Source: Planctomycetaceae bacterium
GTDB taxonomy: Bacteria > Planctomycetota > Planctomycetia > Pirellulales > UBA1268
Length of the DNA: 64,000 bases
Assembly: GCA_947481985.1 (NCBI GenBank)
Contig: CANKIK010000006.1
Span: 13,382 to 77,381, forward strand
Direction of reading: 5' to 3'
The position numbers were made by a program, and so were the translations under genes. The notes beneath the pieces were generated by a model that was not told the origin of the DNA, searched no databases, and worked only from the letters and a program-made list of their open reading frames with translations. This document shows positions 46,465 to 62,459 of the stretch, in pieces. Numbering within the stretch: the stretch's first letter is position 1; each line of letters opens with the position of its first letter.

Positions 46465-48021
46465 TCAGGGGGCCCCCATGCCAGCAGCGACGTGAACTGA
46501 TTCTACCCCACCTCTCGAGACCACGCCCGAGGGCCAAGCCGGCAGACGATCGAGGACGGAGATCGCGTCGGCACGATCGGCCGCCGCATCGGCCTCGACG
46601 ACCAACGCCCCGCGGTCGGCGAGGGCCGCCGACGTTTCGATCCCGTCGAGAATCCGCTGGAGATTCTCCGCAGACACGACGACCACCGGCTCCGACAACG
46701 ACGGCAGCCCGACGTGCAGCGACACTGCCCTCCCCGTCTCCACGCCAAGCGTCCACTGCCCTCCGCCACCACCACTGGCGGAAAGCCCGATCACTCGACC
46801 TGCCGCAGCCGTCCAGGCGGCCTCACCAAGACGCTCAAAAAGCCTCTCGCGGGCCGATGTCGTCCGCATCATCCGCTCGGGCTGTGGCCAACGGAAGCGA
46901 TTGTCGATCGCAAACCGGCACAGCCGGCGGATGGTTTCATCGTCGAGTTCCGGCGCGGGGAGGTCGGGAACGGCGGCGGTCGTCTGCGCGCTATCAAACC
47001 GGGGGTCATCGCTCCAATAGGCCCGGTAGACATGCATCTGATCTTCAAAGAGCCGCGCCAGCACCATGGGATCGAAATGAGCGGCGGCCTTCCCCGGGCC
47101 GGCGGCGGCCCGCTCGGCAGCCAGTTCCTTGGCCATCTCCACCACCAGCGTCTCGAAAACGCGGCACAGCGTTGCCACCGAGGTCGGGCGGGTGGAGGTG
47201 ATGTGGTAGGTGCGGCCGTGGAGCGACTTATCACCGATGATCCGGGCCATCACCGCCGACACCCAGTCGACAGGCACGAGATTCTTGACTTCCGCGCCGC
47301 TCATGCCGAGGACCTCGAGCAGCGACCCCGATTCCAGCGACGCCTCCATGAACGCCTCCACAAACGGCTGCACAATCCGCAGCGGTTTGTAGAAGCCGTG
47401 AAAGGTGTTGGTGAACCCTGTCACCAAATCGCCAACGATGATACTCGGCCGGTGAACCGTGCAGACATCGAGGAACGGAGCGGAGACCGCTGCCTTCTCT
47501 GAGGCGATCTTGCTCCGCTCGTAGTCATTGCCAGGCGTCTGGCCAACGTCGAGCTCGCCCTCGAGAATCCGCCCGCGGCGCGTTCCGCAGACATACGCGC
47601 TCGACACGTGATGGAAGCGTCGGATTCCATGATTGCGGCACAGTTCGAGGACATGCGCCGTTCCGTTGACGTTGCTGTTCCAGGGTTCGCCGTCGCTCTC
47701 CCGCATCTGGAAGGAGAGGCTGGCTGCAGAATGCACGACCTCCGTGACGTGGCGCCCCACCCAGGCGGCGGCCGCCGCAGACAATCCCAGACCGGGGAGA
47801 GTGATATCCCCTTCCAGGACCACCGGGCAGGAAACGGTGACGCCGGCGACACCCCGCCAGTCGTCAAGAATCTCGTCGACACGCCTGGCCGCTCCGGCTG
47901 TCTTTGAACCACGCACAAGCACCGCGATGCGGCGGCCCGTCGCGGCCAAGTCGCGGAGGAGTGACCGGCCAAGCAACCCGGTCGCACCGGTGAGCAGGAG
48001 GTAGGAGTCCTCGACGGTCAT
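46465..48021 (-). CDS. stand-alone thioester/fatty-acyl reductase (NAD_binding_4 / TR-type extended SDR) fused to a C-terminal SCP2-like lipid-binding domain
   Basis: LLLTGATGLLGRSLLRDL, VVHSAASLSF, HHVSSAYVCG, NDYERSKIASE, HRPSIIVGD. The C-terminal ~130 aa (GQWTLGVETGRAVSLHVGL...VVVSAENLQRILDGIETSAALADRGALVVE) fit an SCP2-like pattern. Paralogous to 62605-63780. Confidence 0.8.
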   Translation of the reverse strand: MTVEDSYLLLTGATGLLGRSLLRDLAATGRRIAVLVRGSKTAGAARRVDEILDDWRGVAGVTVSCPVVLEGDITLPGLGLSAAAAAWVGRHVTEVVHSAASLSFQMRESDGEPWNSNVNGTAHVLELCRNHGIRRFHHVSSAYVCGTRRGRILEGELDVGQTPGNDYERSKIASEKAAVSAPFLDVCTVHRPSIIVGDLVTGFTNTFHGFYKPLRIVQPFVEAFMEASLESGSLLEVLGMSGAEVKNLVPVDWVSAVMARIIGDKSLHGRTYHITSTRPTSVATLCRVFETLVVEMAKELAAERAAAGPGKAAAHFDPMVLARLFEDQMHVYRAYWSDDPRFDSAQTTAAVPDLPAPELDDETIRRLCRFAIDNRFRWPQPERMMRTTSARERLFERLGEAAWTAAAGRVIGLSASGGGGGQWTLGVETGRAVSLHVGLPSLSEPVVVVSAENLQRILDGIETSAALADRGALVVEADAAADRADAISVLDRLPAWPSGVVSRGGVESVHVAAGMGAP

Positions 48022-49741: not shown

Positions 49742-50889
49742 GCCGCGCCCTCCGTCGGTCGGCACACCGGCACGGCTGCGGCTGATTGGCTGGCGTTCAT
49801 CTGCGCCAGGAGCCACTTCTGAAAGTGGGTGATCCGCTCCTCGCGACGGGAGATCAACCCCGGGCCGGGGTGCACCGGAGACTCAAGCCCCTGCTGCACC
49901 TGCGGCAAGAGCGCCATATCCTCCGACACAATCTTTTTCCAGGTCGGCAACTCCGACACGGCCAGACGGCGGGCAATGAGGTCTGGGAGCGTGCGCGTGC
50001 CCGACTGACCAACGACACTGCGGTAGGAGATGCGGCACGAACGCGGGCCGGTGGGGGTCACCGACTGGAAGCCACCGCCGAAGTCGATCGACATCCGCAG
50101 CAGTCCAGGGTGGATGTGGCTGTGGCAGTAATCGGCTGAGACATCCTTCCCCATGCCTCTCCCGACACGCTGCTTAAGACGGGTCCAGGCGGAATCGGGG
50201 CTGCGAACAGTGAACCGCGATCCCCCCTCCCACAGTTCGTGGCGGCAATCGCTCTCGGTGGGTGATGCACCGATCGTAGCGGCATGGATGGTGCCGACGT
50301 GATAACTCTCCAAACTGTTTTCAACGACCGCCTTCCAGTTCACCGGCAGATCAACATCCTCGCGCCAGATCGGCCGGGAGATGCAGTCGATACTCGCCTC
50401 CAGACGGCCGTGCTCCTCCTCGCCGAGCCATTCGCGTACGGGGGGCGCTGCGTTGTCAAACGTGATAAAGAGCACTGCACCGGCTTGGTCGAGGCGAAGT
50501 TGGTCGAGGCCTAGTTTCCCCTTTTCAAGCGGGCGGAAACTGGGAGCATCGGGGATCCGTCGGGTCATCCCGCTGTCGTCGAATTCCCAACCGTGGTACT
50601 CACAGCGGAGCTGCGGACAAATGCCGCAGGCACGCTGCGTGAGTTTCGCCATCCGGTGGGGACAGACATTCCGGTAGGCGTGGAAACCATCCCCTCCACG
50701 CCGCACCATCACCGGGCCGCCAACATGATCGAAGGTGATAAAGTGCCCCTCGCGAGGCATCTCCTGGACCAAGGCCACCGCCCACCAGGCGGGGTGAAAA
50801 ACCAACTTTCGTTCCCGCTGGTACCAGTCGTCGTCGTGGTAGGCACTTGCGGGAAGCAATTGCGGCAGATGGGTGTCGCTTACGAACAT
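49738..50889 (-). CDS. Rieske [2Fe-2S] non-heme-iron oxygenase, alpha-subunit type
   Basis: Rieske ligands CPHRMAKL...CEYHGWEF. C-terminal catalytic-domain-like region with NSLESYHVGTIH. ATG at 50889, 6 nt after the PPTase stop. Confidence 0.85.
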   Translation of the reverse strand: MFVSDTHLPQLLPASAYHDDDWYQRERKLVFHPAWWAVALVQEMPREGHFITFDHVGGPVMVRRGGDGFHAYRNVCPHRMAKLTQRACGICPQLRCEYHGWEFDDSGMTRRIPDAPSFRPLEKGKLGLDQLRLDQAGAVLFITFDNAAPPVREWLGEEEHGRLEASIDCISRPIWREDVDLPVNWKAVVENSLESYHVGTIHAATIGASPTESDCRHELWEGGSRFTVRSPDSAWTRLKQRVGRGMGKDVSADYCHSHIHPGLLRMSIDFGGGFQSVTPTGPRSCRISYRSVVGQSGTRTLPDLIARRLAVSELPTWKKIVSEDMALLPQVQQGLESPVHPGPGLISRREERITHFQKWLLAQMNASQSAAAVPVCRPTEGAA

Positions 50890-51539
50890 CGCGTTCGCTC
50901 CTCTCCGCTGCCACTGGCGACTGCTGCCTGCCGAGGGTGCTCGGCGCAGGCAATGGCTACCAGGTACCGGCCGACGTTGAAAAACCGTCCGCTCCCGTGT
51001 GCGGTGCACCACTCATCGCGGAGCGTCCACTCGAAACTATCGGACGAGCCAGTCCGCACCGACACGGCAAGCGGCCGGAAGGTGGTGTCGATCCCGGCAG
51101 CCTTGTAGGCCGACTCCTTAGCCGACCACACCAAGGGACGCGCGGCATCGGTGGCATTGGCGGCCCCGCAATCGTCTGAGAGCCAGTGATCGAGTCCCGG
51201 ACCGGCGACGGCGGGATCAACGATATCGATCCCCACGTTGCCCTGCGAACAGACGGCCGCACCAACCATCCCCCGTTCGTGTGCCAGCGACACCGACACC
51301 TCAAGCAAGCCGGCATCGCCCATCGCCACCGGTCGGCCCGAAGGGAGCAGGGACGCGATCCGCACTCCGTGCCGCGGCAGGCCGGCATGGGCCGCGACCA
51401 CCGCTTCACCGAGCCGACGGGCAGCCGCCGACAGCGATTCCCCCGGTGCCGGGACAGAAAACGCGGCGTCGATGCGCCAGTCGCCGATCACCAATCCCCG
51501 TTCGACGTGACCGTTGCCGGGATGGATGACTGCGATCAT
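50880..51539 (-). CDS. 4'-phosphopantetheinyl transferase
   Basis: SLAHERGMVGAAV, GIDIVD and WSAKESAYKA motifs. The ATG at 51539 overlaps the PKS stop (ATGA). Confidence 0.85.
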   Translation of the reverse strand: MIAVIHPGNGHVERGLVIGDWRIDAAFSVPAPGESLSAAARRLGEAVVAAHAGLPRHGVRIASLLPSGRPVAMGDAGLLEVSVSLAHERGMVGAAVCSQGNVGIDIVDPAVAGPGLDHWLSDDCGAANATDAARPLVWSAKESAYKAAGIDTTFRPLAVSVRTGSSDSFEWTLRDEWCTAHGSGRFFNVGRYLVAIACAEHPRQAAVASGSGEERTRCS

Positions 51540-54500
51540 AAGGGGCGGCTCCGCTCCGACGGCATAACCGCCAAATGGAGACCGTCGAGGGCGACGAGTG
51601 CCCTTCCGTCGGCACCGTAGATGACGAAGTCATAAACCGATTCCCGATCGTCCTGGGAACGGAACACCATCTGCACGGTGCATTTTTCCCCGGCTGCCGC
51701 CTGGGCGACAAACCGCAACCGCTCAAACCGCAGCGGAACCTCAACGCGTTTGCCGCAGAGAATGTATGAGTAGACAGCACATCCCACGATCGCCCCGTCG
51801 AGCAGCGCCGCGGGAACCGTCCACCCGGCGGCGCCGCGGGGCTGGGCCACAGCCGCCATCTCGGGAGCCACCAGCCGCCCCCAGCCACCGCGGCGGTCGA
51901 GAAACAGCCCGGTGAGCGTGCGGAAGGCCGGACCGTGCCACATCGGGCCATCGTCCCGGTAGATCATCGGGTTGAATGGAAAGAGCATGTCGTCCAGTGG
52001 AGTGGTGATCGGCTCCGCAGGACCGCGGGACACCCTGCCTGAGAAGTGCACCCGCTCGCCATCAGCGTCGCGATGGCCGCTGCGCACCGCCGACCAGCCC
52101 TGTGCGCTCACTGCGGCTCCCGGATCGGTCGCCACTCCGGTTACCTCAACCCGCATCTCACGGGACTGATCCGTGGGGAAAACCACCGGGCGTTCGACGA
52201 CGAACTCCCTCATCTCCTCCACCCGGTCACAGGCACCGGAGGCGATCGCCGCCTGGGCGAGCATCTCAGCACCCATCACCGCCGGCAGCAGAGGATGGCC
52301 ATTTTGCCGATGTTCCCGGAGGAAAACGTCCAGCAGCGGATCGAGAGACATCGTCACGTTGGTCGAGTTCTCTGCGCGTGCGACCGTGCCGACGAGGCTG
52401 CCGCGATTCCCCTGTGGCCAACCTGCTGCAGGAATCGCCGACCCCGCCGAGAAAACCGGTGCGGATACGGCGTCGAGGACAAACACCGGTTCGGTGACGA
52501 GCACCTCGGCATCGGGCAGGCCGGCCTCGATCTCGGCGAGGAACCGCGCCACTCCCTCTGAGAGCGGCATGAATTTCATGCCAAACTGTTCGAGCACGAA
52601 GCGGCTCTCGGGCCGACTGGCCATTCCCACTTCGTCCCAGGCATGCCAGTGGAATACCGTCGCCCGCACCCCTGGCCGATCCTGGCGGAGGCGGCCGACG
52701 ATCTTGGCGAGCATGTCGTTTGCCAAGGAATAATCTGCCTGTCCCATCCCACCGAGCCTGCCACTGGTCGATCCGAAGGCCACCACACTCTCCAGGGCCA
52801 CCGCGTCAACGGTCGCCAGCAGATGTTCCAGACCGATGCACTTCGGCCCCAGCGTGGCCTCGAGTCCGTCGAGCGTCTTCTTCTCGAACCGACAGGCTGC
52901 TTCGTAGCCCGCTCCATGGACGATCCCGCGGATCGGCCCGATCTCCCGCGCCAGTCGCTCCACCAGCGTCCGCACAGCGGTGCCGTCGGCCAGGTCGCAA
53001 GCCTCGTAGCGGGCGTTGACCCCGGCGGCCCGAAATTTCTCCAGCCCGCTGGCGATCTCGATCGATTTCTCGACATCCCGCCAGGCACGGCGCGGGTCCC
53101 CGCCTGCGGCCTTGGCGTCGAGCATGATCTTCCCCTTCAGATTCCGCAGTCCGGCCTCGTCGAGTGTCAGCCAGGTGGCGTCCACAGACTGAGGACGTGT
53201 GGAGCCGACAAGCACCAGCGACAGACCATGGCGGCGTCCCAGTTCACGGGCACACGCCGCAGTCACGCCACGGGCACCTCCAGTGACCAGCCAGACACTT
53301 CCCCGCGCCAGTCCGGCCAGAGGCCTTTGGGAGAGCGGGCCGCCGAGCGTGGCGACCACCGTCTGTCGAACGCCGTTCACCCACCCCACTTCCACCGGCC
53401 CCCCGCGACTGGCGATTTCATCGAGTGTCCGCCGGGCCACGTCGGCGGCTAAGGCGGAAGGGGGAAAGTCGACGACGCGCACCTGGACGAGCGGGTATTC
53501 ACGAGCAAGGTTCTTGAACAAGCCACTGAAGGCCCCTCCGGTAACACATCCGATGTGACCGCCGAGCCCAAAGTCTCCCCCCAACGCAGTCACGGCGGTG
53601 AGTGTCGCCCGCTGACTGTCGCCCGCCCGGGTGCGGCAGGCGAGCCACCGCTGACAGGCGAAGTAGCCGGCGACGAGTGTCCGAGAGCGACTCTCGACCC
53701 AGGTCCGTGCCGGATGCCACGGCGTCGCGATCACCACGTGCAGGACAGGCCCCTGGGCCTCGGCGGCATCGACGGCCGACACCGCTTCGGCCTGCGACCC
53801 GCACCGGGCGACAATCGCCTGGGCACCGCGGGCACGCAGCGCCGCCGCGAGGTCCACCGCGAGATCAGCGGAGGTGTTCGTGGCGGCGATGATCAGCACT
53901 CGCTCTCCCTTAAGATCACGATCGAGCACTGCCGATCCGAGGGACTGAAGTCCCAAGCCGTAGCGCCCCGTGACACCGTTCACTTCCTGGGGAGCGGCAG
54001 GCGCCGTCTGCCGCCGCGGGACATCTGCCCACAGGCAAGTGGCGGAGTCGAGCGTCGCTGCTGACAGCCACGGGCCACGCGGACCGCCGGCGAAGGCCTG
54101 CCGGCCGGCGACTGTGCTCCCGCAGACCATCCACGTGGCGGTTGCCGAGAGTCCATCACGCACCCCCACTCCCGCCACAGGATCGAGCAGGCGTCCAAGC
54201 GCCACCCCACCTGCCCCATCGCCCGCCACGCGGAGCAGCGCCGTGAGCGGAGCGAGTTGGTGTGCACAAAGCCCCACAGATTTGACCCGTCCGTCGCCGC
54301 CAATCTCCTGGAGGTTGCCCTGGCGGGTGTCGGCAATGAAGAGCCTGCCGGCAAGGGGAGCTACCCCAGCCAAAACAGTCGCGGCGTCCGCGACAGAACT
54401 GCAGTTAAGCGCCATCTCGACGGCACTTGTCAGAGGAAATCCTGAAGTCATCGACTGGCAGGCGGCGATCACCACCAGGCCAGCGTCATTCCAGCCGGCC

Positions 54501-57500
54501 AGGCCACCCGGGAGTCCTTTGACACCCACAAGCGTCATCCGCCGGCCGCTTGATTCAATTTCCTGACAGGACGGATCGGCGTGGCGACCGAAACCGAGGG
54601 CCAGCCCGAGGACACTGCCGGCATCCATCGACACGGCACTGTCAAATCCACCCAGAGCAGCGGCAGGATCCGCGAGCCCGGCAGCAAGCACTGCTCGATC
54701 AACCCGGGCCCCCTCGGCAACTCCCGACAGATATTTTTCCACCACATCAGGGAGACCGCTCCAAGGCGTCGCGCTGTGGCGCTCGGCCGCAGAGGCGACC
54801 ATTTCACGGGCCCAGAGTCGAATGGCTGTGGCATGCCGGGCACCGTCGGCACGGCCGCGTTCGAAGTCGGCGCTTCCTACGGACGGCGGCAGGTCACCAA
54901 CGCTCGTTCGACCGACCCCGTTCCCCGGGGCAAGGACGCCAGCACTTCCGCCACCGATCCGCGGCAGCATGTAGTCGCGGAGATGGCGGAGGGTGCGGAA
55001 GTCATCGAGCGACAGTTGTGAGTCGGCGGAGAGGCCATATTTCTGACCGATCTCCCCAAACAACTGCGCCTTGCGGATGCTGTCGATGCCCAAATCGCCT
55101 TCCAGATCCGCATCGAGTTCCACGATCTCCCGGGGATACCCCGTCTGATCGACGACAAACTCGACCAAGAACGTCTCCAATTCACCGCTGACGTCGGCGA
55201 CCGTCTCGAGTGCTGCAGCAACCGCTGGGGCAAAACGGGCAGCACCGTTGGTGGAGGCAGCCGAGACCGGAGCCTGAGTCGCCAGACTCTTGGAGGCATT
55301 CGGGGCCGCAGCACTTCCGCCACCGATCCGCGGCAGCATGTAGTCGCGGAGATGGCGGAGGGTGCGGAAGTCATCGAGCGATAGTTGCGAGTCGGCAGAG
55401 AGGCCATATTTCTGACCGATCTCCCCAAACAACTGCGCCTTGCGGATGCTGTCGATCCCCAAATCGCCTTCCAGATCCGCATCGAGTTCCACGATCTCCC
55501 GGGGATACCCCGTCTGATCGACGACAAACTCGACCAGAAACGTCTCCAGTTCACCGCTGACGTCGGCTGCCAAAGTCTCCACGGCGGAGGCTTGGTCAGT
55601 CAGGAGTGACTCAACGACCGCGCTGCTATGGCGATTGGAGCTGTGACCGTTGGAGCTATAGCCGTTGGAGCTATAGCCGTTGGAACTGTGGCCGTTGGAG
55701 CTATAGCCATTGGAACTATGGCCGTTGGAACTATGGCCGTTGGAAACCAAGACAAGCGACGGCGTCCGGAGCCCCGGCTGCCGACCGCCACCGATCCGCG
55801 GCAGCATGTAGTCGCGAAGATGGCGGAGGGTGCGGAAGTCATCGAGCGACAGTTGTGAGTCGGCGGAGAGGCCATATTTCTGGCCGATCTCCCCAAACAA
55901 CTGCGCCTTGCGGATGCTGTCGATCCCCAAATCGCCTTCCAAATCCGCATCGAGTTCCACGATCTCCCGCGGATACCCCGTCTGATCGACGACGAACTCG
56001 ACCAGACAGTTTTCCAAGTCCGTGGCCACCACCGCAGAGTTTGTCGCTGTCTGTGCGCTCGGCAGGGCCACAGCCGGCCTGCGGTCGAGCCACCGCGCCT
56101 TGCCCCCGCTCGCGGCGAGGATCTCACAGACCTCGTCGATCGTGGCCGCGGTGCCGAGGGCCGTCAGATCGGCGTGGCCACATTCGAAGAGTTGCCCAGC
56201 GGCGTCGAGAAACGCATGGCCCTTGTCCGCCGAGGAGTGCAGAGGGATCGTGACCCCATAATCACCGAGCAAACCGGCGACGACATCCTCGAGGTATCCC
56301 TGCAACTGTCGCGGCGGCAAGGCCTGGGCTGACCGCATCACCGCCGGCACGGCGGCCAAGCGATGAACGGCACCGGCGTGGGGACGGGCACCGTGTGTGA
56401 CCACTGGCTGAGCGGAAGCAAGAGGAGCCCTCGGCGGAGGGGCGGCAGCAGCCGTATGAACTGGAGCGTTCCCGGCACGGTTTCGAGCGCGGCGACGGGC
56501 GGTGGCGTCAAACGACCACATCGCTCCCGACGGCACTCCGCCAAGGCCCTCTCCCGAACTCAGAAGCAGACGCTTCGGCTCGATACCCGGAGCCTGCGGT
56601 GCCGAAGCCAGGCTTCGCAACGCACCGGCAGACTGCAACTGCTCCCGCACTTTCTCCAGGTGTCCGACTGCGTTCCGGCCGCGCTGATCGAAGGAGATAA
56701 AGGTCGCTCCTTCGCGTCCCTCGAGGATCCTCCTGGTCAAGCCAGTCAGCACTCCCGACGGCCCCACTTCGACAAACGTCCGCACGCCTGATTCCCACAA
56801 CCGTTCCACCACGTCCACCCAACGAACAGTCTGCGTCATCTGCCGGATGAGACTCTCGCGTACATCGTCGGCAGAGAGCATCGGCGCAGCGGTGCTGCTG
56901 CTGTACACAGTTTTCCGCGGCGCCACGATCGGCAGTCCTCGGATCGTCTCGGCGAGACGGTCGGCGGCTGCCGCCAGCAACGGCGTGTGGAACGGGCTGG
57001 GAACTGCCAGCCGCTTCGAACGCACCCGTCGCCCCTCAAGGACCACCTCCACGGCATCAACCACCCTGGCGTGACCGCCGATCACCGACTGCTCCGGGGC
57101 ATTCTCGGCACAGAGCCACACCTGCCCGGCAAACGGCTCGATACAATGCTCGACTTCCTGGCGATCGGCGATCACTGACAGCATGGCCCCCTGCTTCGGC
57201 CCCAGTTGTTCGACAGCTGCGGCCCGGGCTTTGGTGGCGAGCGCTCCTTCTTCGAATGTCCACGCGCCGGCGGCGACCAGTGAGGGAAATTCCCCGAAAC
57301 TGTGGCTGGCGATCACATCCGGCGCGAAGCCCATCCCTTCGAGCACCCGCCAGGCGAGGAGGTCGCCAAGGTACATGCCCCACTGCGTGTCCCAGACTGC
57401 CGTTCCGAGTCGATTGCCCGGCTGCCAAGCGATTTCGGCGAGCGTCTGCCAACCCCCGGAGCGGGCGGCTGCATCGAGCCCTTGGGCGCACTGCCCCACC

Positions 57501-60472
57501 AAGGATGCATCGGCCACCAGGCTGCGGAACATATCGGTGTACTGGGACCCCTGCCCCGGAAAGAGCGCCGCGACGAGCCCTCGGGAAGCTCCGCCGAAAG
57601 GATTCGCTGCCGGGAGTTCCAAGGCCGCGGGCGTGGCCGACGCGCTCCCCACAGGCTGCCACAGCGGCAGAGGCCGGCCGTTGTCCATCACCAGGTGGCC
57701 CACCAGCGTGTCGTTGACACTCGTCACGCTGCCGGCCCGATAGCCGTTCTCATCGAAGGCCGCGACGGCGAGCGGTGCCGCTGCCGCCGCCGGGACACCG
57801 GCTTGCTGCGTCCGCACCGCCACCGTCCCGGGCATCACACCGCTGTCGAGAACCCGCGTGAGTTTGACAACCGCGGCTGCCCCAGCCGCAGCACCGAGGT
57901 GGCCGACAACTCCTTCGATCGCTCCCGCCACCGGAGTCCCACCATACTCGGCGGCGATGGCCGCTAACTCCGCTTGATTTCCCTCGAGCGTGCCGCAGCC
58001 GCAGACTTCGACAGCCCCAACGGCACAAGCCGAGATCCCCGACTGGAGCCGTGCCTCGTGGACCACCCGAGAGGCCACGGTGGCGATCGATTCGCCCGAG
58101 CCCACCGCAACGCCGCGAATCACGCCATGAATCCTCTGCCCCGCAGCCCGGGCATCGGAGAGTCGCTTGAGCACCATCACCACGGCACCCTCTCCGGGCA
58201 CGCGACCGGCGCTGGCACGGTCGAACGGCGAACTCGTCCCGTCGGCAATCGAGCCCTCGAGAGAGAAGCCCTCAAAGGCCATCAGGTCGAGGTAGCGTTG
58301 GCCGGCAGCACACAGCACCGTATCGCAATCCCCCTGGCGGAGCAGGTCCGCGGCGGCGGAGATCGCTGAGAGACCGGAACAATCGCCGGCATCGAGTGCC
58401 AGGGCGCCTCCCATCAGATCGAACGATTTCGTCAACCGGCTGGCGAGCGTCGAACTGGTGAAGCTCCCCGTCTCGTCGACGAGGGCCGGCATCCGCTCGA
58501 GGAGTTTCTTTCCGTACGCCTCCACGATGCGCTCGATATCCCCCGCAGCGACACCCCGTCGGCCGAGCGCTGTCCGCAGGTGACCGGACGTCTCAGGCAG
58601 CCGCAAGCCCATCTGCAGATCATTGGAAAACTCTCCGCCGAACATCGTTCCGACAACGACTCCAGTGCGGATCCGGTCAAGTGCTGCCACACCGCCAACC
58701 TCAGCAATCGCTGCATCGGCAGCCTCAAGCAGCATGAACTGGAGTGGATTAGCAGCGGCGATCTGCTTGGGGGGAACTTTGTGACGCCGCCAATCGTAGG
58801 CAAAGCCGCGAACGAAACCGCCGACACCTGCCACCGTGTGCCAGGTGCGCGGCCCGGAGGGATCGAGGGCCCGGGAAAGATCCCAGCGATCGGCTGGCAC
58901 CGCAGCCACCACCGATTCTCCACGCTCGAGCAGTTCCAGGAACGCATTCGTCGACAGGGCCCCGGGCATCACGCTGCCAATGCCGACGATGGCAATCGCT
59001 CTGTTGTCGGCATCATCTACAGCCCTGGCAGCCTGGGGTGCCACGGGCACGGAGGGGGCCAGGGGCGCCGCCGGCAGATGCTCTGAGAGGGCGAGGTGGA
59101 CGTTGAGGCCGCCGATTCCGAAGGCATTCACGGCCGCCCGGCGGGCCTCGCCATCGGCGCGCTTGGGCCAGGAGAGCGCTGTCTGGGGAACCGAGAACGG
59201 CCCCCTTTCCCAATCGAAATCCTCGTTGAATTCAGTGGCCGTTGTCCCCGGTGGAATGAGGCCGTGTTCCATGGCCAACACCACCTTCACGAGACTCGCC
59301 ATGCCGGCAGTTTCGAGGGTGTGACCGATGTTGGCCTTCACACTGCCGATGGGGATTTTCTTCCCGGCCGGTAGATTGGCAGCCATCAGCGCCGACAAGG
59401 CGCCAAGTTCCGTAGCGTCGCCGACCTGCGTGCTGGTGGCGTGGGCCTCGATGTAATCGAGACGGGCGATCTCCCGCTTGTCGGGATAGGCGCGTTCCAC
59501 GGCCAATGTCTGTCCCTCCTGACGGGGCGCCCAGAGGCTCTTCCCCTTGCCGTCGCTGGCCACTCCGATACCGCGGATCACGGCACGGATCCGATCGCCG
59601 TCGGCGATCGCGCGGGAGAGCGTCTTGATGACCAGCGCCACATAGCCCTCGGCGGTCACCAGACCATCGGCCCCGCGGCCGAACGGACACGATCCGCGGT
59701 TGCTCACCGATTGGGCGGCCGAGAAGAGAACCAGGCTATCCGACTTGCAGTACGAGGCACCGCCGACGATCGCTTGGTCAATACCGTCCTGCTGGAGGGC
59801 ACGGGCGGCGATGGCCATCGCCTGCAGCGACGACGCACAGGCGGCATCGACGACAAGGTAAGGACCGTTAAGCCGCAGCGCCTCGCGAACGATCTTGGCG
59901 GCCCCGAGCGCCCCCAGATCGAGCTTCTCTCCCGGTTTTCTCCCCGGGTGCCGGTGGCGGACGGCTGCTGTTACCTCATCGGCCACCACCGAGGCCTCGG
60001 CGCCGAGGAGTTGCCGTGCCACATCAACGTCGCACAGGAGCGAAGCGCTGCCGTCGATGCCGGTGGAGTAGACGTAGTCGCCAATCCGGGTGCTGCCGCC
60101 GGTGTGCCCCACGTAGACTCCCGTGCGGCGGCCGGAGGGCATCGCGAAAGGATCGAGGCCGGCGTCGCTGCAGGCCAGTGAAGCCACTTCCAGAAAGAGA
60201 TGATGCGCCACGTCATAGCGCTGGATCATGTCGGGCGTGATCGGGCAGACCGCCGGATCAGCTGGTCGTTCACTCACCAAGGCGCCGAGGTCTGAGTAAC
60301 TCTTGCCGACCTTCCCCTTCTCGGGGTCAAAATACAGCCCACGCGGCAATCGGGACTCGGGCAATCGGCCCCAGGCAGTGCGGCCATGCACGACCAAATC
60401 CCAGAAGGCCTCAAGGCCATCCGCCCCAGGCAGCCTGCAAGCCATCCCCACTATCGCCAATGAATCGTGCAA
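51536..60472 (-). CDS. 2978-aa iterative type I polyketide / secondary-lipid synthase: KS, degenerate KS (CLF-like), AT, ACP x3, unknown ~290-aa insert, KR, PS-type DH; no TE, ER or FabA-type DH
   Basis: Domain motifs are listed in the sub-features below. The ORF opens with TTG at 60472 (TTG-CAC-GAT-TCA = M/L-H-D-S), only 5 codons before the KS IVGMACRLPG box. The next in-frame Met would truncate the KS. Confidence 0.95.
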   Translation of the reverse strand: MHDSLAIVGMACRLPGADGLEAFWDLVVHGRTAWGRLPESRLPRGLYFDPEKGKVGKSYSDLGALVSERPADPAVCPITPDMIQRYDVAHHLFLEVASLACSDAGLDPFAMPSGRRTGVYVGHTGGSTRIGDYVYSTGIDGSASLLCDVDVARQLLGAEASVVADEVTAAVRHRHPGRKPGEKLDLGALGAAKIVREALRLNGPYLVVDAACASSLQAMAIAARALQQDGIDQAIVGGASYCKSDSLVLFSAAQSVSNRGSCPFGRGADGLVTAEGYVALVIKTLSRAIADGDRIRAVIRGIGVASDGKGKSLWAPRQEGQTLAVERAYPDKREIARLDYIEAHATSTQVGDATELGALSALMAANLPAGKKIPIGSVKANIGHTLETAGMASLVKVVLAMEHGLIPPGTTATEFNEDFDWERGPFSVPQTALSWPKRADGEARRAAVNAFGIGGLNVHLALSEHLPAAPLAPSVPVAPQAARAVDDADNRAIAIVGIGSVMPGALSTNAFLELLERGESVVAAVPADRWDLSRALDPSGPRTWHTVAGVGGFVRGFAYDWRRHKVPPKQIAAANPLQFMLLEAADAAIAEVGGVAALDRIRTGVVVGTMFGGEFSNDLQMGLRLPETSGHLRTALGRRGVAAGDIERIVEAYGKKLLERMPALVDETGSFTSSTLASRLTKSFDLMGGALALDAGDCSGLSAISAAADLLRQGDCDTVLCAAGQRYLDLMAFEGFSLEGSIADGTSSPFDRASAGRVPGEGAVVMVLKRLSDARAAGQRIHGVIRGVAVGSGESIATVASRVVHEARLQSGISACAVGAVEVCGCGTLEGNQAELAAIAAEYGGTPVAGAIEGVVGHLGAAAGAAAVVKLTRVLDSGVMPGTVAVRTQQAGVPAAAAAPLAVAAFDENGYRAGSVTSVNDTLVGHLVMDNGRPLPLWQPVGSASATPAALELPAANPFGGASRGLVAALFPGQGSQYTDMFRSLVADASLVGQCAQGLDAAARSGGWQTLAEIAWQPGNRLGTAVWDTQWGMYLGDLLAWRVLEGMGFAPDVIASHSFGEFPSLVAAGAWTFEEGALATKARAAAVEQLGPKQGAMLSVIADRQEVEHCIEPFAGQVWLCAENAPEQSVIGGHARVVDAVEVVLEGRRVRSKRLAVPSPFHTPLLAAAADRLAETIRGLPIVAPRKTVYSSSTAAPMLSADDVRESLIRQMTQTVRWVDVVERLWESGVRTFVEVGPSGVLTGLTRRILEGREGATFISFDQRGRNAVGHLEKVREQLQSAGALRSLASAPQAPGIEPKRLLLSSGEGLGGVPSGAMWSFDATARRRARNRAGNAPVHTAAAAPPPRAPLASAQPVVTHGARPHAGAVHRLAAVPAVMRSAQALPPRQLQGYLEDVVAGLLGDYGVTIPLHSSADKGHAFLDAAGQLFECGHADLTALGTAATIDEVCEILAASGGKARWLDRRPAVALPSAQTATNSAVVATDLENCLVEFVVDQTGYPREIVELDADLEGDLGIDSIRKAQLFGEIGQKYGLSADSQLSLDDFRTLRHLRDYMLPRIGGGRQPGLRTPSLVLVSNGHSSNGHSSNGYSSNGHSSNGYSSNGYSSNGHSSNRHSSAVVESLLTDQASAVETLAADVSGELETFLVEFVVDQTGYPREIVELDADLEGDLGIDSIRKAQLFGEIGQKYGLSADSQLSLDDFRTLRHLRDYMLPRIGGGSAAAPNASKSLATQAPVSAASTNGAARFAPAVAAALETVADVSGELETFLVEFVVDQTGYPREIVELDADLEGDLGIDSIRKAQLFGEIGQKYGLSADSQLSLDDFRTLRHLRDYMLPRIGGGSAGVLAPGNGVGRTSVGDLPPSVGSADFERGRADGARHATAIRLWAREMVASAAERHSATPWSGLPDVVEKYLSGVAEGARVDRAVLAAGLADPAAALGGFDSAVSMDAGSVLGLALGFGRHADPSCQEIESSGRRMTLVGVKGLPGGLAGWNDAGLVVIAACQSMTSGFPLTSAVEMALNCSSVADAATVLAGVAPLAGRLFIADTRQGNLQEIGGDGRVKSVGLCAHQLAPLTALLRVAGDGAGGVALGRLLDPVAGVGVRDGLSATATWMVCGSTVAGRQAFAGGPRGPWLSAATLDSATCLWADVPRRQTAPAAPQEVNGVTGRYGLGLQSLGSAVLDRDLKGERVLIIAATNTSADLAVDLAAALRARGAQAIVARCGSQAEAVSAVDAAEAQGPVLHVVIATPWHPARTWVESRSRTLVAGYFACQRWLACRTRAGDSQRATLTAVTALGGDFGLGGHIGCVTGGAFSGLFKNLAREYPLVQVRVVDFPPSALAADVARRTLDEIASRGGPVEVGWVNGVRQTVVATLGGPLSQRPLAGLARGSVWLVTGGARGVTAACARELGRRHGLSLVLVGSTRPQSVDATWLTLDEAGLRNLKGKIMLDAKAAGGDPRRAWRDVEKSIEIASGLEKFRAAGVNARYEACDLADGTAVRTLVERLAREIGPIRGIVHGAGYEAACRFEKKTLDGLEATLGPKCIGLEHLLATVDAVALESVVAFGSTSGRLGGMGQADYSLANDMLAKIVGRLRQDRPGVRATVFHWHAWDEVGMASRPESRFVLEQFGMKFMPLSEGVARFLAEIEAGLPDAEVLVTEPVFVLDAVSAPVFSAGSAIPAAGWPQGNRGSLVGTVARAENSTNVTMSLDPLLDVFLREHRQNGHPLLPAVMGAEMLAQAAIASGACDRVEEMREFVVERPVVFPTDQSREMRVEVTGVATDPGAAVSAQGWSAVRSGHRDADGERVHFSGRVSRGPAEPITTPLDDMLFPFNPMIYRDDGPMWHGPAFRTLTGLFLDRRGGWGRLVAPEMAAVAQPRGAAGWTVPAALLDGAIVGCAVYSYILCGKRVEVPLRFERLRFVAQAAAGEKCTVQMVFRSQDDRESVYDFVIYGADGRALVALDGLHLAVMPSERSRPL
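51548..52375 (-). other. PKS domain: polyketide-synthase-type double-hotdog dehydratase
   Basis: HxxxGxxxxP present as HRQNGHPLLP (His2721), followed by AVMGAEMLAQAA. Second-half LLDGAIVGCAVY (Asp2892). Confidence 0.8.
52598..53920 (-). other. PKS domain: ketoreductase (structural pseudo-Rossmann subdomain plus catalytic subdomain)
   Basis: RVLIIAATNTSADLA...VLHVVIAT (structural half); VWLVTGGARGVTAACARELG; GIVHGAG; FGSTSGRLGGMGQADYSLAN (Tyr2581). Confidence 0.85.
54023..54880 (-). other. PKS insert of unknown function between ACP3 and KR (aa ~1865-2150); tentatively C45/Ntn-hydrolase (acyl-CoA:6-APA acyltransferase)-like
   Basis: ADFERGRADGARHATAIRLW at the start, LAGWNDAGLVVIAA, and GFPLTSAVEMALNCSSVADAATVLAGVAPLAGRLFIADTRQGN resemble C45-family blocks as remembered. 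No Gly-Cys self-cleavage site was identified. Assignment by eye only. Confidence 0.35.
54944..56020 (-). repeat. three tandem ACP domains encoded by near-identical DNA (copies at about 55784-56005, 55313-55567 and 54944-55198)
   Basis: Each copy encodes LVEFVVDQTGYPREIVELDADLEGDLGIDSIRKAQLFGEIGQKYGLSADSQLSLDDFRTLRHLRDYMLPRIGGG (phosphopantetheine Ser at aa 1519, 1675, 1798). ACP2 and ACP3 are identical at the protein level over 85 aa, with a 369-nt period and a few synonymous differences. Confidence 0.9.
55622..55744 (-). repeat. ~8 x 15-bp in-frame tandem repeat encoding an (S-S-N-G-H/Y)n linker between ACP1 and ACP2
   Basis: Plus strand gccgttggagctata / gccgttggaactgtg / gccattggaactatg and similar units. 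Protein: SNGHSSNGHSSNGYSSNGHSSNGYSSNGYSSNGHSSNRHSS (aa 1577-1617). Confidence 0.9.
56693..57580 (-). other. PKS domain: acyltransferase (malonyl-type by eye)
   Basis: FPGQGSQY. Nucleophile elbow reads ASHSFGEF (SHSxG instead of GHSxG). VPSPFHTPLL (xAFH-like). Confidence 0.85.
57818..59005 (-). other. PKS domain: second KS-like domain with a degenerate active site (chain-length-factor-like)
   Basis: IAIVGIGSVMPGA. DAGDCSGL aligns to DAACASSL, placing Asp at the nucleophile position with Cys shifted by one. VEVCGCGTLEGNQAE replaces the EAHGTGT box (His to Cys). The second His is retained in VVGHLGAAAGA. Confidence 0.7.
59084..60466 (-). other. PKS domain: ketosynthase (KS1), catalytically complete
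   Basis: IVGMACRLPG; active-site Cys in VVDAACASSL (aa 212); EAHATSTQVGDATE (His344); NIGHTLETAG (His384); FGIGGLNVH. Confidence 0.9.
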
Positions 60473-61034
60473 AGCTCAGTCCTCGTCCTGGAGTGGAGCG
60501 CCATCAAGGCCGGGAATACCGTGGTGTGCGGTGTTCCCGCCTCTGGCGGTTGAAGCGGATGAACAGGTCAGAAGGGTGTTGATCGGGAATCCGTACGCGA
60601 AGCGAGATTGTCGAAGGCCAAAACAACCCGTCCGTGGGATCAACACAATGCCCAGCCCCCTCTGATGGGGCCCCGAGGCACTGCTCCGCATGCGAAGGAT
60701 CGGGCCCTGGGGGGCCCGGAAACCTCCCCGCGGAAGCGCATCCGTTCACCGTCTCATTCATCCCGCCGTGGACCTCTGGCAGCCACCCAAACCGCATCGC
60801 GCGGGGCGGAGTGTGCGTGGTATGCCGAATCCAGGACGGGGCAAGTCAGTATGGACAGGGGGTTTAGACTGTCAAGAAATGGCCTCAATCGGCAGTTGAA
60901 CCGCCTTCGGAGAGCCTCGCGAGACATCCTGGCGGCGGTGCCACCGGCCGCTGCGTATACTCCCTCCGCCCCCGCTTATTAGACGGGTGCCGACCCTTCG
61001 CCATTGGTTTCAGGCGTTGCCTCCCCCGCTCCCT
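60473..61034. promoter_or_regulatory. divergent intergenic control region between the PKS operon (minus) and the condensation-enzyme/TR operon (plus)
   Basis: 562 bp with no convincing ORF between two divergent biosynthetic operons. It contains a TATACT hexamer at about 60955 and a GGGCCC...GGGCCC palindromic element at about 60700-60718. No promoter could be defined rigorously. Confidence 0.4.
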
Positions 61035-62459
61035 ATGACCGCCGATCGACCGCTGACCCCTTTCGAGCAGTTGTTACTGCGGGACCAGCGCCCGGGGTAT
61101 CCGATCTGTTTTTTCCTCCACTGCGATCTGGAGGGCAACCTTGACGGAGAGCGTCTGAGGACTGCCCTGCAGACGGCCTGCCTCCGCCACCCCCTCACCC
61201 AAAGCAGGGTGCGCGGCTCTTGGTGGCGGCCCCGCTGGATGCCGGGGAGATGGATGCCGGAACTGGTCGTTGCTCCCCTGGGAACTCACCTTCCCAGCCA
61301 TGGCGGCCCGGGGGATCCATGGCGGCCGATCGATGTCCAGCTTGGCAGCGGCCTGCGGATGGTGGCCTGCGAGCGTTTTCCCGGTGTCTGGCGGGTGGTG
61401 CTCCAAGTTCACCACGCGGTCTGCGACGGACTCTCAGGCATGGAACTCTTCGGCGACGTCTGGTCGCACTACCACGGCAACCCTCCCGCCGCCTTCCGTC
61501 AGCCGACCCGCCGGCTGGCAGCCCCCTCAGCTCCGGCTCCTGCAGCGTCCCCCCAGCCCCCCTCCACTGACCTCGTCCGCGAGACCAGGAAGTTCGCTGG
61601 CTTTATTCCCACTCCACTGGCCAGAGGACCGGTGCGGGCTGTCGCAGAACCAGCCTGTCCTGGCATCGATGCGCCCTATCTCACCTTCCGTTTCAGCCGC
61701 GAGGAAACCCGACTGCTGTGGACCCATGCGGCCGCGGCAGGCGTGGCTGTCAACGACATCCTCGTGGCGGCGATGATGCGCACCTGCCTGGCTTGGAATG
61801 CGGCAGCGGGACACCCAGCCAGTGGAGTCCGAATCACGATGCCGGTGAGCCTCAAGGCAGCCGGTGCCCGCGGACCGGTCTGCAACGACATGTCGTATGC
61901 CTTCCTCGACCGCTCCGCCGCCGACTGCGCCCGCCCGTCAGAGCTGATTCACTCTCTCGCGGCCGCCAGCCACTGGATCCAGGAGCATCGCGCCACCGAA
62001 GCCCTCCTCGACACACTGGCCGTGCTGGATCGCTATCCTCCGCTGATCTGGTTGATCACCCGCTTGCCTGTCTGCCTATCGACAGCAGTGGTCAGCAACA
62101 TCGGCAATTTCGGCACGCGGATGAAAGCGTCTGTCCCACACGACGGCGCCTGCGGACTCCCCGGAGGATTGCGGATCACGGCAGCAGGCGGCGTTCCGCC
62201 GCTCCGTCCAGGGACCAGACTCGCAGTCGGACTGGCCACCTATGACAGCCAGTTGCAGCTGTCGCTGCTGTGCGATCGGAGATCGCTCGGCGATGCAGCG
62301 CAGTCGCTCTTGGCGGAGATGATCCGACCGAGCGTCTTCGGCTGCGCCGCGGCGCTCTCACATTGGGGAGGGGCCGACGCCCCGGCTGGCGAGCCCCGGC
62401 CGCCCGAACCATCGCGGGATAACCGGGGGCCATTGCCCACGGTGCGGGGGCGAATCTAG
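61035..62459 (+). CDS. free-standing condensation-domain acyltransferase (HHxxxDG; PapA5 / wax-ester-synthase-like logic)
   Basis: VLQVHHAVCDGLSGMELFGDVW. About 475 aa and no carrier or adenylation domain. ATG at 61035 (the ORF opens with GTG at 60987). Confidence 0.75.
   Translation: MTADRPLTPFEQLLLRDQRPGYPICFFLHCDLEGNLDGERLRTALQTACLRHPLTQSRVRGSWWRPRWMPGRWMPELVVAPLGTHLPSHGGPGDPWRPIDVQLGSGLRMVACERFPGVWRVVLQVHHAVCDGLSGMELFGDVWSHYHGNPPAAFRQPTRRLAAPSAPAPAASPQPPSTDLVRETRKFAGFIPTPLARGPVRAVAEPACPGIDAPYLTFRFSREETRLLWTHAAAAGVAVNDILVAAMMRTCLAWNAAAGHPASGVRITMPVSLKAAGARGPVCNDMSYAFLDRSAADCARPSELIHSLAAASHWIQEHRATEALLDTLAVLDRYPPLIWLITRLPVCLSTAVVSNIGNFGTRMKASVPHDGACGLPGGLRITAAGGVPPLRPGTRLAVGLATYDSQLQLSLLCDRRSLGDAAQSLLAEMIRPSVFGCAAALSHWGGADAPAGEPRPPEPSRDNRGPLPTVRGRI

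What the first reader, a model, noticed from the sequence alone, without database searches (positions are those of the whole stretch)
54023..54880. Unexplained ~290-aa domain inserted between the ACP array and the KR, possibly Ntn/C45 acyltransferase-like
Residues ~1865-2150 are not accounted for by any standard PKS domain; the KR structural subdomain starts only at about aa 2185. Three blocks resemble the C45 family (isopenicillin-N acyltransferase-like Ntn hydrolases) as I remember it:
- FERGRADGARHATAI
- GWNDAGLVVIAA
- GFPLTSAVEMALNCSSVADAATVL...FIADTRQGN

An acyl-transfer or hydrolase fold positioned right after the carrier proteins could act as an in-cis release or editing domain, standing in for the missing TE. 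If it self-cleaves like true Ntn enzymes, it would split the megasynthase into two chains. I could not find the Gly-Cys nucleophile site, so it may be a non-cleaving or degenerate version.
Basis: inference. Interest (0 to 1): 0.65.

Follow-up and report, generated by a model that had tools for sequence, protein, structure and literature searches.

The report
Nucleophile-less C45 hydrolase domain inside PKS
A giant lipid-type polyketide synthase of an uncultured planctomycete carries, between its carrier domains and its ketoreductase, a real but diverged copy of the self-cleaving penicillin-acyltransferase (peptidase C45, Ntn-hydrolase) fold. In this copy phenylalanine replaces the catalytic cysteine, so it most likely neither cuts the enzyme nor releases the product.

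Summary

The Ntn/C45 idea is also right for the fold:
- An AlphaFold2 model (pLDDT 84) hits isopenicillin-N acyltransferase first (E 2.6e-7). Acid ceramidase, NAAA and proteasome beta subunits follow.
- A profile of the insert aligns with a stand-alone planctomycete C45 protein (hhalign 89%).
- A same-architecture PKS from a sister family has a Pfam-significant C45 domain at the same position, with an intact Gly-Cys site.

The would-be self-cleavage site here is Gly1942|Phe1943, so the nucleophile is lost. All 16 near-identical proteins checked carry Phe.

Across 79 distinct homologues this position is Cys 32, Leu 23, Phe 14, other 5 (5 are gapped there). It covaries with the Asp of an FGR[HN]AD motif.

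The domain stays under purifying selection (dN/dS about 0.2) even where both Cys and Asp are gone. It is therefore most likely a retained non-catalytic scaffold or binding module.

"Stands in for the missing TE" is not supported. Every cluster variant encodes a thioester reductase, and most loci reaching upstream also encode a condensation-like enzyme.

The parts
51536..60472 (-). Iterative PUFA-synthase-like type I PKS, 2978 aa: KS, CLF-like KS, AT, 3 ACPs, X, psiKR, KR, DH
   Evidence: ORF, translation, Pfam domains.
54023..54880 (-). X domain, aa 1865-2150: diverged C45/IAT-like Ntn-hydrolase fold
   Evidence: AF2 model pLDDT 84, pTM 0.79. Foldseek top hits 2x1c/2x1d/2x1e at E 2.6e-7, then other Ntn folds. 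Pfam PF03417 scores 14 bits here, and reaches E 1.6e-4 at best in 6 of 17 homologues. hhalign to a stand-alone C45 protein gives 89%.
54647..54880 (-). Helical N-terminal part of X, aa 1865-1942. It corresponds to the alpha chain or pro-segment of IAT and includes the FERGxxxGxxHAxAI motif.
   Evidence: DSSP helices at model residues 9-80. Aligns with 'GTPYEMGREHG' of P0058 and 'GTPFEIGYEHG' of IAT.
54644..54649 (-). Would-be autoproteolytic site Gly1942|Phe1943 (codons GGA TTT). Phe occupies the nucleophile position.
   Evidence: Sequence. The column aligns with GG-C of P0054 and AG-C of P0058. It is the first residue of the first beta strand. Column counts are C 32, L 23, F 14, S 2, W 2, I 1. 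All 16 near-identical proteins checked have F.
54038..54646 (-). Beta-sandwich core of X, aa 1943-2145. It corresponds to the IAT beta chain.
   Evidence: Strand and helix pattern. Foldseek matches to Ntn folds.
54575..54592 (-). FGRHAD motif, aa 1961-1966: Arg1963 and Asp1966
   Evidence: Same pattern as 'FGRNMD' (Arg18, Asp21) of choloylglycine hydrolase 2BJF. Arg is invariant. Asp covaries with the nucleophile Cys.
54476..54496 (-). GWNDAGL motif, aa 1993-1999. Asn1995 is invariant in the family.
   Evidence: This is the region of the Pfam PF03417 hit. It aligns with 'GMNSCGV' of P0054 and 'GLNSAGL' of P0058. Conservation.
53963..54022 (-). Flexible linker between X and psiKR, aa about 2151-2170
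   Evidence: pLDDT 31-45 at model residues 290-306.
52553..53962 (-). Standard ketoreductase: structural subdomain (aa about 2171-2390) plus catalytic subdomain (aa about 2391-2640)
   Evidence: Pfam KR at 2393-2614. Foldseek to modular PKS KRs at E 1e-21 to 1e-23, TM 0.7-0.77 normalised to the target.
54947..55180 (-). Third ACP, immediately upstream of X
   Evidence: Pfam PP-binding with 3 stretches. LGIDSIRKAQ at aa 1794.
46465..48021 (-). Stand-alone thioester-reductase-like protein (NAD_binding_4, 518 aa), the likely release enzyme
   Evidence: Pfam. Found downstream in Cys-, Leu- and Phe-type clusters wherever the contig reaches that far, at 66-83% identity.
60987..62459 (+). Divergently transcribed 490-aa protein, weakly condensation/PapA5/WS-DGAT-like
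   Evidence: Sub-threshold Pfam hits here. The G057 homologue scores 31.5 bits against Condensation, cut-off 30.6. Found upstream in most loci that extend there.

Best explanation
The 290-aa insert is a diverged, nucleophile-less descendant of a peptidase-C45 (isopenicillin-N acyltransferase-like) Ntn-hydrolase domain.

An ancestor of the Pirellulales PUFA-like megasynthases acquired this domain between the ACP array and the KR.

The domain keeps the family's layout:
- a helical pro-segment-like N-terminal part
- a Gly-Gly turn
- the alpha-beta-beta-alpha core

At the position that must be an N-terminal Cys after self-cleavage, this protein has Phe1943. Shown: the residue at that column is Phe. 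Inferred: the chain is therefore not cut at Gly1942|Phe1943, no acyl-enzyme can form, and the domain is a pseudoenzyme.

The domain is retained under purifying selection, much like the non-catalytic psiKR subdomain. Inferred: it is a structural or binding module tethered by a flexible linker. It may organise or dimerise the ACP-to-KR-DH region, or hold the acyl or phosphopantetheine arm.

Inferred: product release is carried out by the neighbouring thioester reductase and the condensation-like enzyme, not by X.
For: Fold:
- The AF2 model has pLDDT 84 and pTM 0.79.
- The Foldseek top 7 hits are IAT 2x1c/2x1d/2x1e (E 2.6e-7 to 3.6e-6, prob 1.0). Acid ceramidase, NAAA, CV2077, proteasome beta, HslV and PurO follow.

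Sequence links:
- PF03417 is the only Pfam family hit by the window's X region. It is hit by 6 of 17 homologues, best E 1.6e-4.
- The A1 profile aligns with the stand-alone C45 protein P0054 (hhalign 89%, E 2.4e-6). P0054 scores 59 bits on PF03417 and matches 2x1c at E 8e-20.
- P0058, a PKS with the same architecture in a sister family, has PF03417 above the cut-off (35.8 bits) at the same position, with an AG-C site.

Nucleophile:
- Phe1943 aligns with those Cys residues and starts strand 1.
- Phe is present in all 16 near-identical proteins checked.
- The column reads C 32, L 23, F 14, S 2, W 2, I 1. It covaries with Asp1966: C goes with D/E, L with A.
- On a tree built from the KR-DH region the states are clustered. 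One F/L clade is nested inside the Cys clade.

Selection:
- X has dN/dS 0.15-0.24 in the Leu/Ala clade and 0.24-0.46 in the Cys clade. For comparison, psiKR is 0.13-0.40 and KR 0.07-0.22.
- X is the least conserved domain, at 34-49% identity against 66-87% for KS, AT and KR.

Separate domain:
- A disordered linker separates X from the KR, and the three-domain model has pTM of only 0.60.

Release enzymes:
- A thioester reductase and a condensation-like gene are conserved regardless of the nucleophile state.
Against: - Arg1963, Asp1966 and Asn1995 are still present in this protein, and the domain is under purifying selection. Some ligand-binding or non-canonical activity is therefore not excluded.
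- Foldseek TM-scores are modest (0.35-0.39) with high global RMSD.
- The window's own Pfam score (14 bits) is below the cut-off of 23.2.
- hhalign to P0058's domain gives only 24% probability (E 8e-4).
- No model coordinates were available, so the active-site geometry was not inspected.
- A structural role is inferred from what is absent and was not shown directly. The model gave no confident X-KR interface.
Confidence: 0.75

Rival explanations
1. X is still an enzyme that uses a relocated or non-canonical nucleophile instead of an N-terminal Cys. A candidate is Cys1969 in 'DPSC', which appears only in the clade that lost Cys1943. X would hydrolyse or transfer ACP-bound acyl chains without self-cleavage.
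For: - Arg1963, Asp1966 and Asn1995 are retained here.
- Cys at aa 1969 occurs in 23 sequences, all lacking the canonical Cys.
- Purifying selection on X is as strong in nucleophile-less clades as in Cys clades.
Against: - The Cys1969 pattern is explained by a single clade, so it is phylogenetically confounded.
- Most of that clade has also lost Asp1966 (L goes with A).
- No Ntn enzyme is known to work from an internal nucleophile without cleavage (established knowledge of the family).
- The geometry could not be checked.
Confidence: 0.08
2. One reading: X is the in-cis release or editing catalyst replacing a missing thioesterase, and it may split the synthase by self-cleavage.
For: - The fold is that of IAT, which takes acyl groups from a phosphopantetheine thioester (acyl-CoA) onto its Cys.
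- The position directly after the ACPs is suggestive.
- Cys-bearing homologues exist.
Against: - This protein has Phe at the nucleophile position.
- Thioester reductase and condensation-like release candidates accompany the PKS in Cys-, Leu- and Phe-type clusters alike.
- The Cys clade shows no extra constraint.
Confidence: 0.05
3. X is not a distinct homologous domain. It would be a long linker, an extension of the KR structural subdomain, or a degenerate second acyltransferase.
For: - The region is the least conserved part of the protein.
- phmmer gave weak secondary matches of X residues 165-204 to the AT region (domain E 0.002 to about 10).
Against: - The model is a confident globular fold.
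- The KR di-domain is complete without X.
- None of the listed Foldseek hits for the X model is an AT or KR.
- The AT-like matches are not significant.
Confidence: 0.03

Closest known systems
Acyl-CoA:isopenicillin N acyltransferase (IAT/PenDE, Penicillium chrysogenum; MEROPS C45; Pfam PF03417; PDB 2X1C precursor, 2X1D/2X1E mature)
   Same: - Best structural match.
- Same order of elements: N-terminal helical segment with a [FY]E.G...HG-type motif, a Gly before the nucleophile position, the beta-sandwich core, and a G.N..G motif.
- IAT's acyl donor is a phosphopantetheine thioester, like an acyl-ACP.
   Different: - IAT is a stand-alone 357-aa protein that cleaves itself at Gly102|Cys103 and uses Cys103 as its nucleophile.
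- X is fused inside a 2978-aa synthase and has Phe at that position.
- X is shorter. It lacks a beta hairpin and a C-terminal helical segment seen in P0058.
- X scores below the Pfam cut-off.
Choloylglycine (bile salt) hydrolase and penicillin V acylase (MEROPS C59; PDB 2BJF)
   Same: The 'FGR[HN]AD' motif of X matches 'FGRNMD' (Arg18, Asp21) that follows Cys2 in 2BJF. Both belong to the Ntn clan and both act on acyl amides.
   Different: - None of the listed Foldseek hits for the X model is a C59 structure.
- C59 enzymes have no long helical pro-segment.
- X has no Cys.
In-line C45 domains of other Pirellulales megasynthases (for example P0058 from genome G057, locus L061 3946-12231)
   Same: - Same KS, CLF, AT, ACP, X, KR, DH architecture.
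- Same gene partners: SDR, thioester reductase and a condensation-like protein.
- About 40 of 301 genomes in the order carry such a domain inside an ORF of 900-3956 aa.
   Different: - P0058, L063, L064, L065 and L066 keep a canonical AGC/GGC site, an 'ANED' motif and 'G.NS.G'. P0058 passes the Pfam cut-off.
- The window's family is more eroded, and this copy has no nucleophile.
- None of these domains is described in the papers I could search.
psiKR, the non-catalytic structural subdomain of PKS ketoreductases
   Same: A former enzyme fold kept inside a megasynthase for a structural role, with similar dN/dS and similar sequence conservation.
   Different: The fold is unrelated (Rossmann versus Ntn). 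psiKR packs against its catalytic partner, whereas X is joined by a flexible linker and has no predicted fixed partner.

Membership tests
Peptidase C45 / IAT-like Ntn hydrolases (PF03417) | Ntn-hydrolase alpha-beta-beta-alpha fold | tested here: met
   The AF2 model (pLDDT 84) matches IAT, acid ceramidase, NAAA, CV2077, proteasome beta, HslV and PurO. TM is only 0.35-0.39.
Peptidase C45 / IAT-like Ntn hydrolases (PF03417) | Score above the Pfam gathering threshold (23.2 bits) | tested here: not met
   The window scores 13.9-14.3 bits, E 0.03-0.04. The best A1 homologue reaches E 1.6e-4. The positional homologue P0058 scores 35.8 bits.
Peptidase C45 / IAT-like Ntn hydrolases (PF03417) | Cys nucleophile preceded by Gly, the autoproteolytic site that becomes the new N-terminus | tested here: not met
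   The site reads Gly1942-Phe1943, codon TTT. It aligns with GG-C and AG-C of C45 proteins.
Peptidase C45 / IAT-like Ntn hydrolases (PF03417) | Supporting active-site residues: the Asp after strand 2 and the Asn of the G.N..G motif | tested here: inconclusive
   Arg1963, Asp1966 and Asn1995 are present by motif alignment. MAFFT and hhalign disagree by one residue on the Asp register. No coordinates were available to check.
Peptidase C45 / IAT-like Ntn hydrolases (PF03417) | Self-cleavage into alpha and beta chains, and acyl-transfer or amidase activity | not testable with these tools
   This needs protein expression with intact-mass analysis and activity assays. Absence is predicted because the nucleophile is missing.
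PKS ketoreductase structural subdomain (the 'extended KR docking subdomain' alternative) | The region forms part of the KR di-domain fold | tested here: not met
   The KR di-domain starts at about aa 2171, after a disordered linker. It matches solved KRs over about 490 columns without X.
Pfa-type (PUFA-synthase-like) iterative type I PKS | KS, CLF pair, AT, tandem ACPs and KR plus PS-DH on large polypeptides, with a PPTase in the cluster | tested here: met
   Pfam domains. PPTase, SDR and TR neighbours. The single-chain KS-CLF-AT-ACP3-X-KR-DH order is not the canonical PfaA or PfaC split.

The most novel reading that the evidence does not exclude
In-line C45 domains are an undescribed kind of megasynthase module.

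In the Cys-bearing relatives (32 of 79 distinct sequences, and canonical copies such as P0058) the synthase would mature by Ntn-type autoproteolysis at Gly|Cys. This would give two chains, KS-CLF-AT-ACPn-alpha and beta-KR-DH, held together by the C45 alpha/beta interface. The exposed Cys would take the finished acyl chain from the ACP phosphopantetheine arm, as IAT does from acyl-CoA, for transfer or release.

The window's Phe1943 version would then be a lineage that reverted to a single chain. It would keep the domain only as the glue or as an acyl-binding groove that hands the chain to the reductase.
Probability: 0.2. Interest if true: 0.8.

Novelty: new variant of a known kind. Interest (0 to 1): 0.5.

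Why it matters
I found no paper describing a built-in Ntn-hydrolase (C45) domain among the standard PKS or FAS domains. Yet it is common in Pirellulales lipid-type megasynthases.

The family offers a natural series of variants: Cys/Asp-intact, Cys-only-lost (this window), and Cys-and-Asp-lost. This makes two questions directly testable:
- Do some megasynthases mature by self-cleavage?
- What does a pseudo-Ntn domain do in an assembly line?

This particular copy is the inactive kind, so its own biochemical interest is moderate. Its value is as the negative member of that series, and as annotation for roughly 290 residues that the Pfam search on this protein left unassigned.

Tried and rejected
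- Direct sequence searches of X against PDB chains, with both the single sequence and the A1 profile, gave only chance hits.
- phmmer of X against 1.84 billion representatives found 16 proteins. The longer ones sit in large multidomain proteins or fragments like this PKS, and the weakest few were not examined. No stand-alone relative emerged.
- A profile search over 5.8 billion proteins, limited to query-like lengths, found only fragments of the same PKS family; three of the four also carry an ACP domain.
- The search for related loci failed with the 17-sequence alignment and with the single protein. It worked with a 6-sequence alignment.
- Weak AT-like matches of X residues 165-204 were considered as a sign of a degenerate second AT. 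I rejected this because they are not significant and no AT structure appears among the listed Foldseek hits.
- In G302 the match to X is divided between two adjacent ORFs near the nucleophile. This looked like a natural gene split mimicking autoproteolysis. It is a frameshift inside a GC-rich run, with no new start codon, in a 4-contig assembly of about 70% completeness. It is probably a sequencing error or a pseudogene, so I did not use it.
- The first dN/dS script gave impossible values because of an ORF-picking bug. It was redone with tblastn-anchored codons.
- Members of the window's 90% cluster are more than 99% identical, too close for dN/dS.
- Literature searches for an Ntn or C45 domain in PKS or PUFA synthases found nothing relevant. 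Shulse and Allen 2011 list planctomycete Pfa-like types without this domain.

Full report
**The gene and the observation**

The finding lies in one long minus-strand ORF, window 51536..60472, encoding 2978 aa. Pfam places these domains:
- KS at 4-467
- a second KS-like region
- AT at 970-1251
- three PP-binding domains
- KR at 2393-2614
- a PS-DH at 2702-2974

Nothing is assigned between the last ACP, which ends near aa 1842, and the KR.

**Is the region a domain?**

The segment aa 1860-2170 is conserved at 35-48% identity in 37 full-length megasynthases with the same Pfam architecture.

I aligned 17 of these segments (A1) and folded the window's copy with that alignment. The model is confident (mean pLDDT 84, pTM 0.79). 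It has about 75 helical residues followed by a strand-rich core.

A larger model of aa 1864-2655 shows three parts:
- X ends near aa 2150.
- A stretch of about 17 residues is disordered.
- From about aa 2171 the chain forms a complete two-subdomain PKS ketoreductase. Foldseek matches about 490 columns, with TM 0.7-0.77 normalised to solved KRs.

X is therefore an extra, separately folded domain. It is not a linker or a KR extension. The three-domain pTM of only 0.60 means no fixed X-KR packing is predicted.

**What fold is it?**

Foldseek of the X model against the PDB returns:
- First, seven chains of isopenicillin-N acyltransferase: 2x1c precursor, 2x1d and 2x1e mature (E 2.6e-7 to 3.6e-6, probability 1.0).
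- Next, uncleaved acid ceramidase, the NAAA precursor and CV2077.
- Then dozens of proteasome beta subunits, HslV and PurO.

The top-ranked hits are Ntn hydrolases throughout; only a few low-probability rows further down the 50 listed are of other or unassigned folds. TM-scores are modest (0.35-0.39), which is a caveat.

Sequence evidence agrees:
- PF03417 (AAT, peptidase C45) is the only Pfam family that the window's X region touches (14 bits, below the 23.2 cut-off).
- PF03417 is hit by 6 of 17 homologous segments, best E 1.6e-4.
- The A1 profile found a 358-aa stand-alone protein (P0054) in a genome of the same order. P0054 scores 59 bits on PF03417 and matches 2x1c at E 8e-20. hhalign of A1 against it gives 89% probability, E 2.4e-6.
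- A PF03417 scan of related genomes found an above-threshold hit inside a 2761-aa ORF (P0058, genome G057). P0058 has the same KS-CLF-AT-ACP-X-KR-DH architecture. Its partner genes are the same: SDR, thioester reductase and a condensation-like protein. Its X domain scores 35.8 bits on PF03417.

P0058's domain aligns collinearly with A1 (E 8e-4, probability only 24%). The shared elements are the N-terminal 'GTPYEMGREHG' / 'SADFERGRADG' motif, the nucleophile turn, and 'GLNSAGL' / 'GWNDAGL'.

**The missing Gly-Cys**

In every alignment the nucleophile Cys of C45 proteins falls on A1 column 84, which is aa 1943. The C45 sites are GG-C in P0054 and AG-C in P0058; the mature-IAT chain printed reads DG-C at its own site. 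This column is the first residue of the first beta strand, and it follows the invariant Gly1941 and the nearly invariant Gly1942.

The window has Phe there. The codon is TTT, one base away from TGT. All 16 near-identical proteins checked, 14 of them members of the same 90% cluster from other assemblies, also read GGFD. It is therefore not an assembly error.

Among 79 distinct homologous domains the column reads Cys 32, Leu 23, Phe 14, Ser 2, Trp 2 and Ile 1, and 5 sequences are gapped there.

About twenty residues downstream lies 'FGR[HN]AD'. This is the same pattern as 'FGRNMD' (Arg18, Asp21) that follows Cys2 in choloylglycine hydrolase 2BJF. In this motif:
- The Arg is invariant.
- The Asp covaries with the nucleophile. 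Cys goes with Asp or Glu in 28 of 32 sequences, and Leu with Ala in 19 of 23.
- The window is an intermediate state: Phe1943 together with Arg1963, Asp1966 and Asn1995.
- MAFFT and hhalign place the canonical Asp one residue away from Asp1966. Without coordinates this register stays unsettled.

**Evolution**

A tree of the flanking psiKR-KR-DH region, rooted on P0058, shows:
- The nucleophile states are strongly clustered: 8 changes against about 31 expected from shuffles.
- There is a large Cys clade with a nested Phe/Leu clade, which is a clear loss.
- The window is sister to a Leu/Ala clade.
- The outgroup branch is long, so the root is uncertain.

Conservation and selection:
- X is the least conserved domain, at 34-49% identity. 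KS, AT and KR are at 66-87%, and psiKR at 44-56%.
- X is nevertheless under purifying selection. dN/dS is 0.15-0.24 in the Leu/Ala clade, 0.24-0.46 in the Cys clade and 0.28-0.35 in a Phe/Ser clade.
- These values are comparable to psiKR (0.13-0.40) and above KR (0.07-0.22).
- What is selected therefore does not depend on the nucleophile.

**Distribution**

The contigs that carry the domain come from Planctomycetota MAGs, mostly Pirellulales from freshwater. 25 of 61 related genomes have the A1-type domain.

Using P0058's domain as the query, about 40 of 301 genomes of the order show it inside ORFs of 900-3956 aa, across many families. Some of these copies have canonical Cys sites (L063-L066). 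Others are degenerate: L067/L069 have Ser, and L068 has no Cys.

Stand-alone relatives are too distant for phmmer.

**Function**

Ntn hydrolases need a Cys, Ser or Thr side chain both to cut the precursor and to catalyse the reaction. This is established knowledge of the family. With Phe1943, this protein should stay a single chain and should form no acyl-enzyme.

The 'missing TE' premise is also weak:
- A thioester-reductase-like gene (66-83% identical across clusters) lies downstream of the PKS in every cluster type whose contig reaches that far.
- A highly conserved SDR (82-93% identical across the A1-type clusters, 63% in G057) is present in all of them.
- A condensation/PapA5/WS-DGAT-like gene lies upstream in most loci that extend there.
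- These genes accompany Cys-, Leu- and Phe-type clusters alike.

My best explanation (confidence about 0.75) is a retained pseudo-Ntn domain with a scaffolding or binding role. Release would fall to the reductase or the condensation-like enzyme.

Rival explanations:
- A relocated nucleophile, such as Cys1969, which appears only in the clade lacking Cys1943. This is not excluded, but it is confounded by phylogeny (about 0.08).
This applies at most to Cys-bearing relatives (about 0.05 for this protein).
- A linker, KR extension or degenerate AT. The models contradict this (about 0.03).

**Comparison and novelty**

The closest known family is IAT/PenDE (C45). The fold and motif order are shared. 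The Pfam threshold and the defining Gly-Cys nucleophile are not met. X therefore works like, at most, a dead C45 domain, and I do not file it as a functional member of the family.

I found no paper describing a C45 or Ntn domain inside a PKS or PUFA synthase. Shulse and Allen 2011 list planctomycete Pfa-like types without it.

Earlier AI notes of this scan report the same kind of domain in other planctomycete genomes. They agree with my reading, but they are not independent evidence.

I rate the finding as a new variant of a known kind, with moderate interest for this inactive copy. The family as a whole, and especially the Cys-bearing members that may self-cleave, is more interesting.

Noticed in passing
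window 54566-54568 (aa 1969, Cys in 'DPSC'): A Cys three residues after Asp1966 occurs in 23 homologues, all of which lack the canonical nucleophile Cys. Conversely, Cys-type domains have Cys at aa 1960 ('VCFGR') where this clade has Gly. This may be only a clade signature.
   Followed up: partly
window 60987-62459 (+): A divergently transcribed 490-aa protein has only sub-threshold Pfam hits (PapA_C, WS_DGAT_cat, Condensation). Its homologue in G057 reaches the Condensation cut-off (31.5 bits). A homologue lies next to the PKS in most loci that extend upstream, so it is a likely acyl-transfer or release partner.
   Followed up: partly
window 48073-48837 (-): The FabG/FabI-like SDR is the most conserved gene among the A1-type clusters, at 82-93% protein identity across loci whose PKS domains are 50-87% identical. 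The copy in the outgroup G057 is 63% identical.
   Followed up: no
window 48869-51012 (-): The Rieske oxygenase and FkbM methyltransferase pair is optional. It is present in some related clusters and absent or relocated in others, independent of the state of the X nucleophile.
   Followed up: partly
window about 55622-55744 (-), aa about 1576-1616: The ACP1-ACP2 linker is a run of SSNG[H/Y] pentapeptide repeats. The ACP2-ACP3 linker is Ala/Pro/Ser-rich. The three ACP cores are nearly identical.
   Followed up: no
L071 (G302:C1:5228900-5230300): In one related genome the in-line C45 domain is divided between two adjacent ORFs by a frameshift in a GC-rich run, right at the nucleophile region. 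There is no new start codon. It is probably an assembly error or a pseudogene rather than a natural two-gene split.
   Followed up: yes
L013, L015, L017, L018, L021, L036 and others; L022, L040: Several MAG contigs carrying this cluster are titled 'Candidatus Kuenenia stuttgartiensis' or 'Chitinophaga/Chitinophagaceae'. In the tree they group with Pirellulales sequences, so the record labels look unreliable.
   Followed up: no
G000:C66:3117-3470 and G000:C40:20766-21101 (own genome, outside the window): The same genome has two further PF03417-like matches. One lies in a 1027-aa open frame (37.9 bits) and one in a 438-aa open frame (22 bits). C45-type proteins therefore also occur outside the PKS in this organism.
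   Followed up: no
L068 (G176) and L069 (G233): Larger relatives (3581 and 3956 aa) have two KR-type regions and up to five ACPs, and their X domains are degenerate (no Cys, or Ser). Pfam does not detect X in them.
   Followed up: partly
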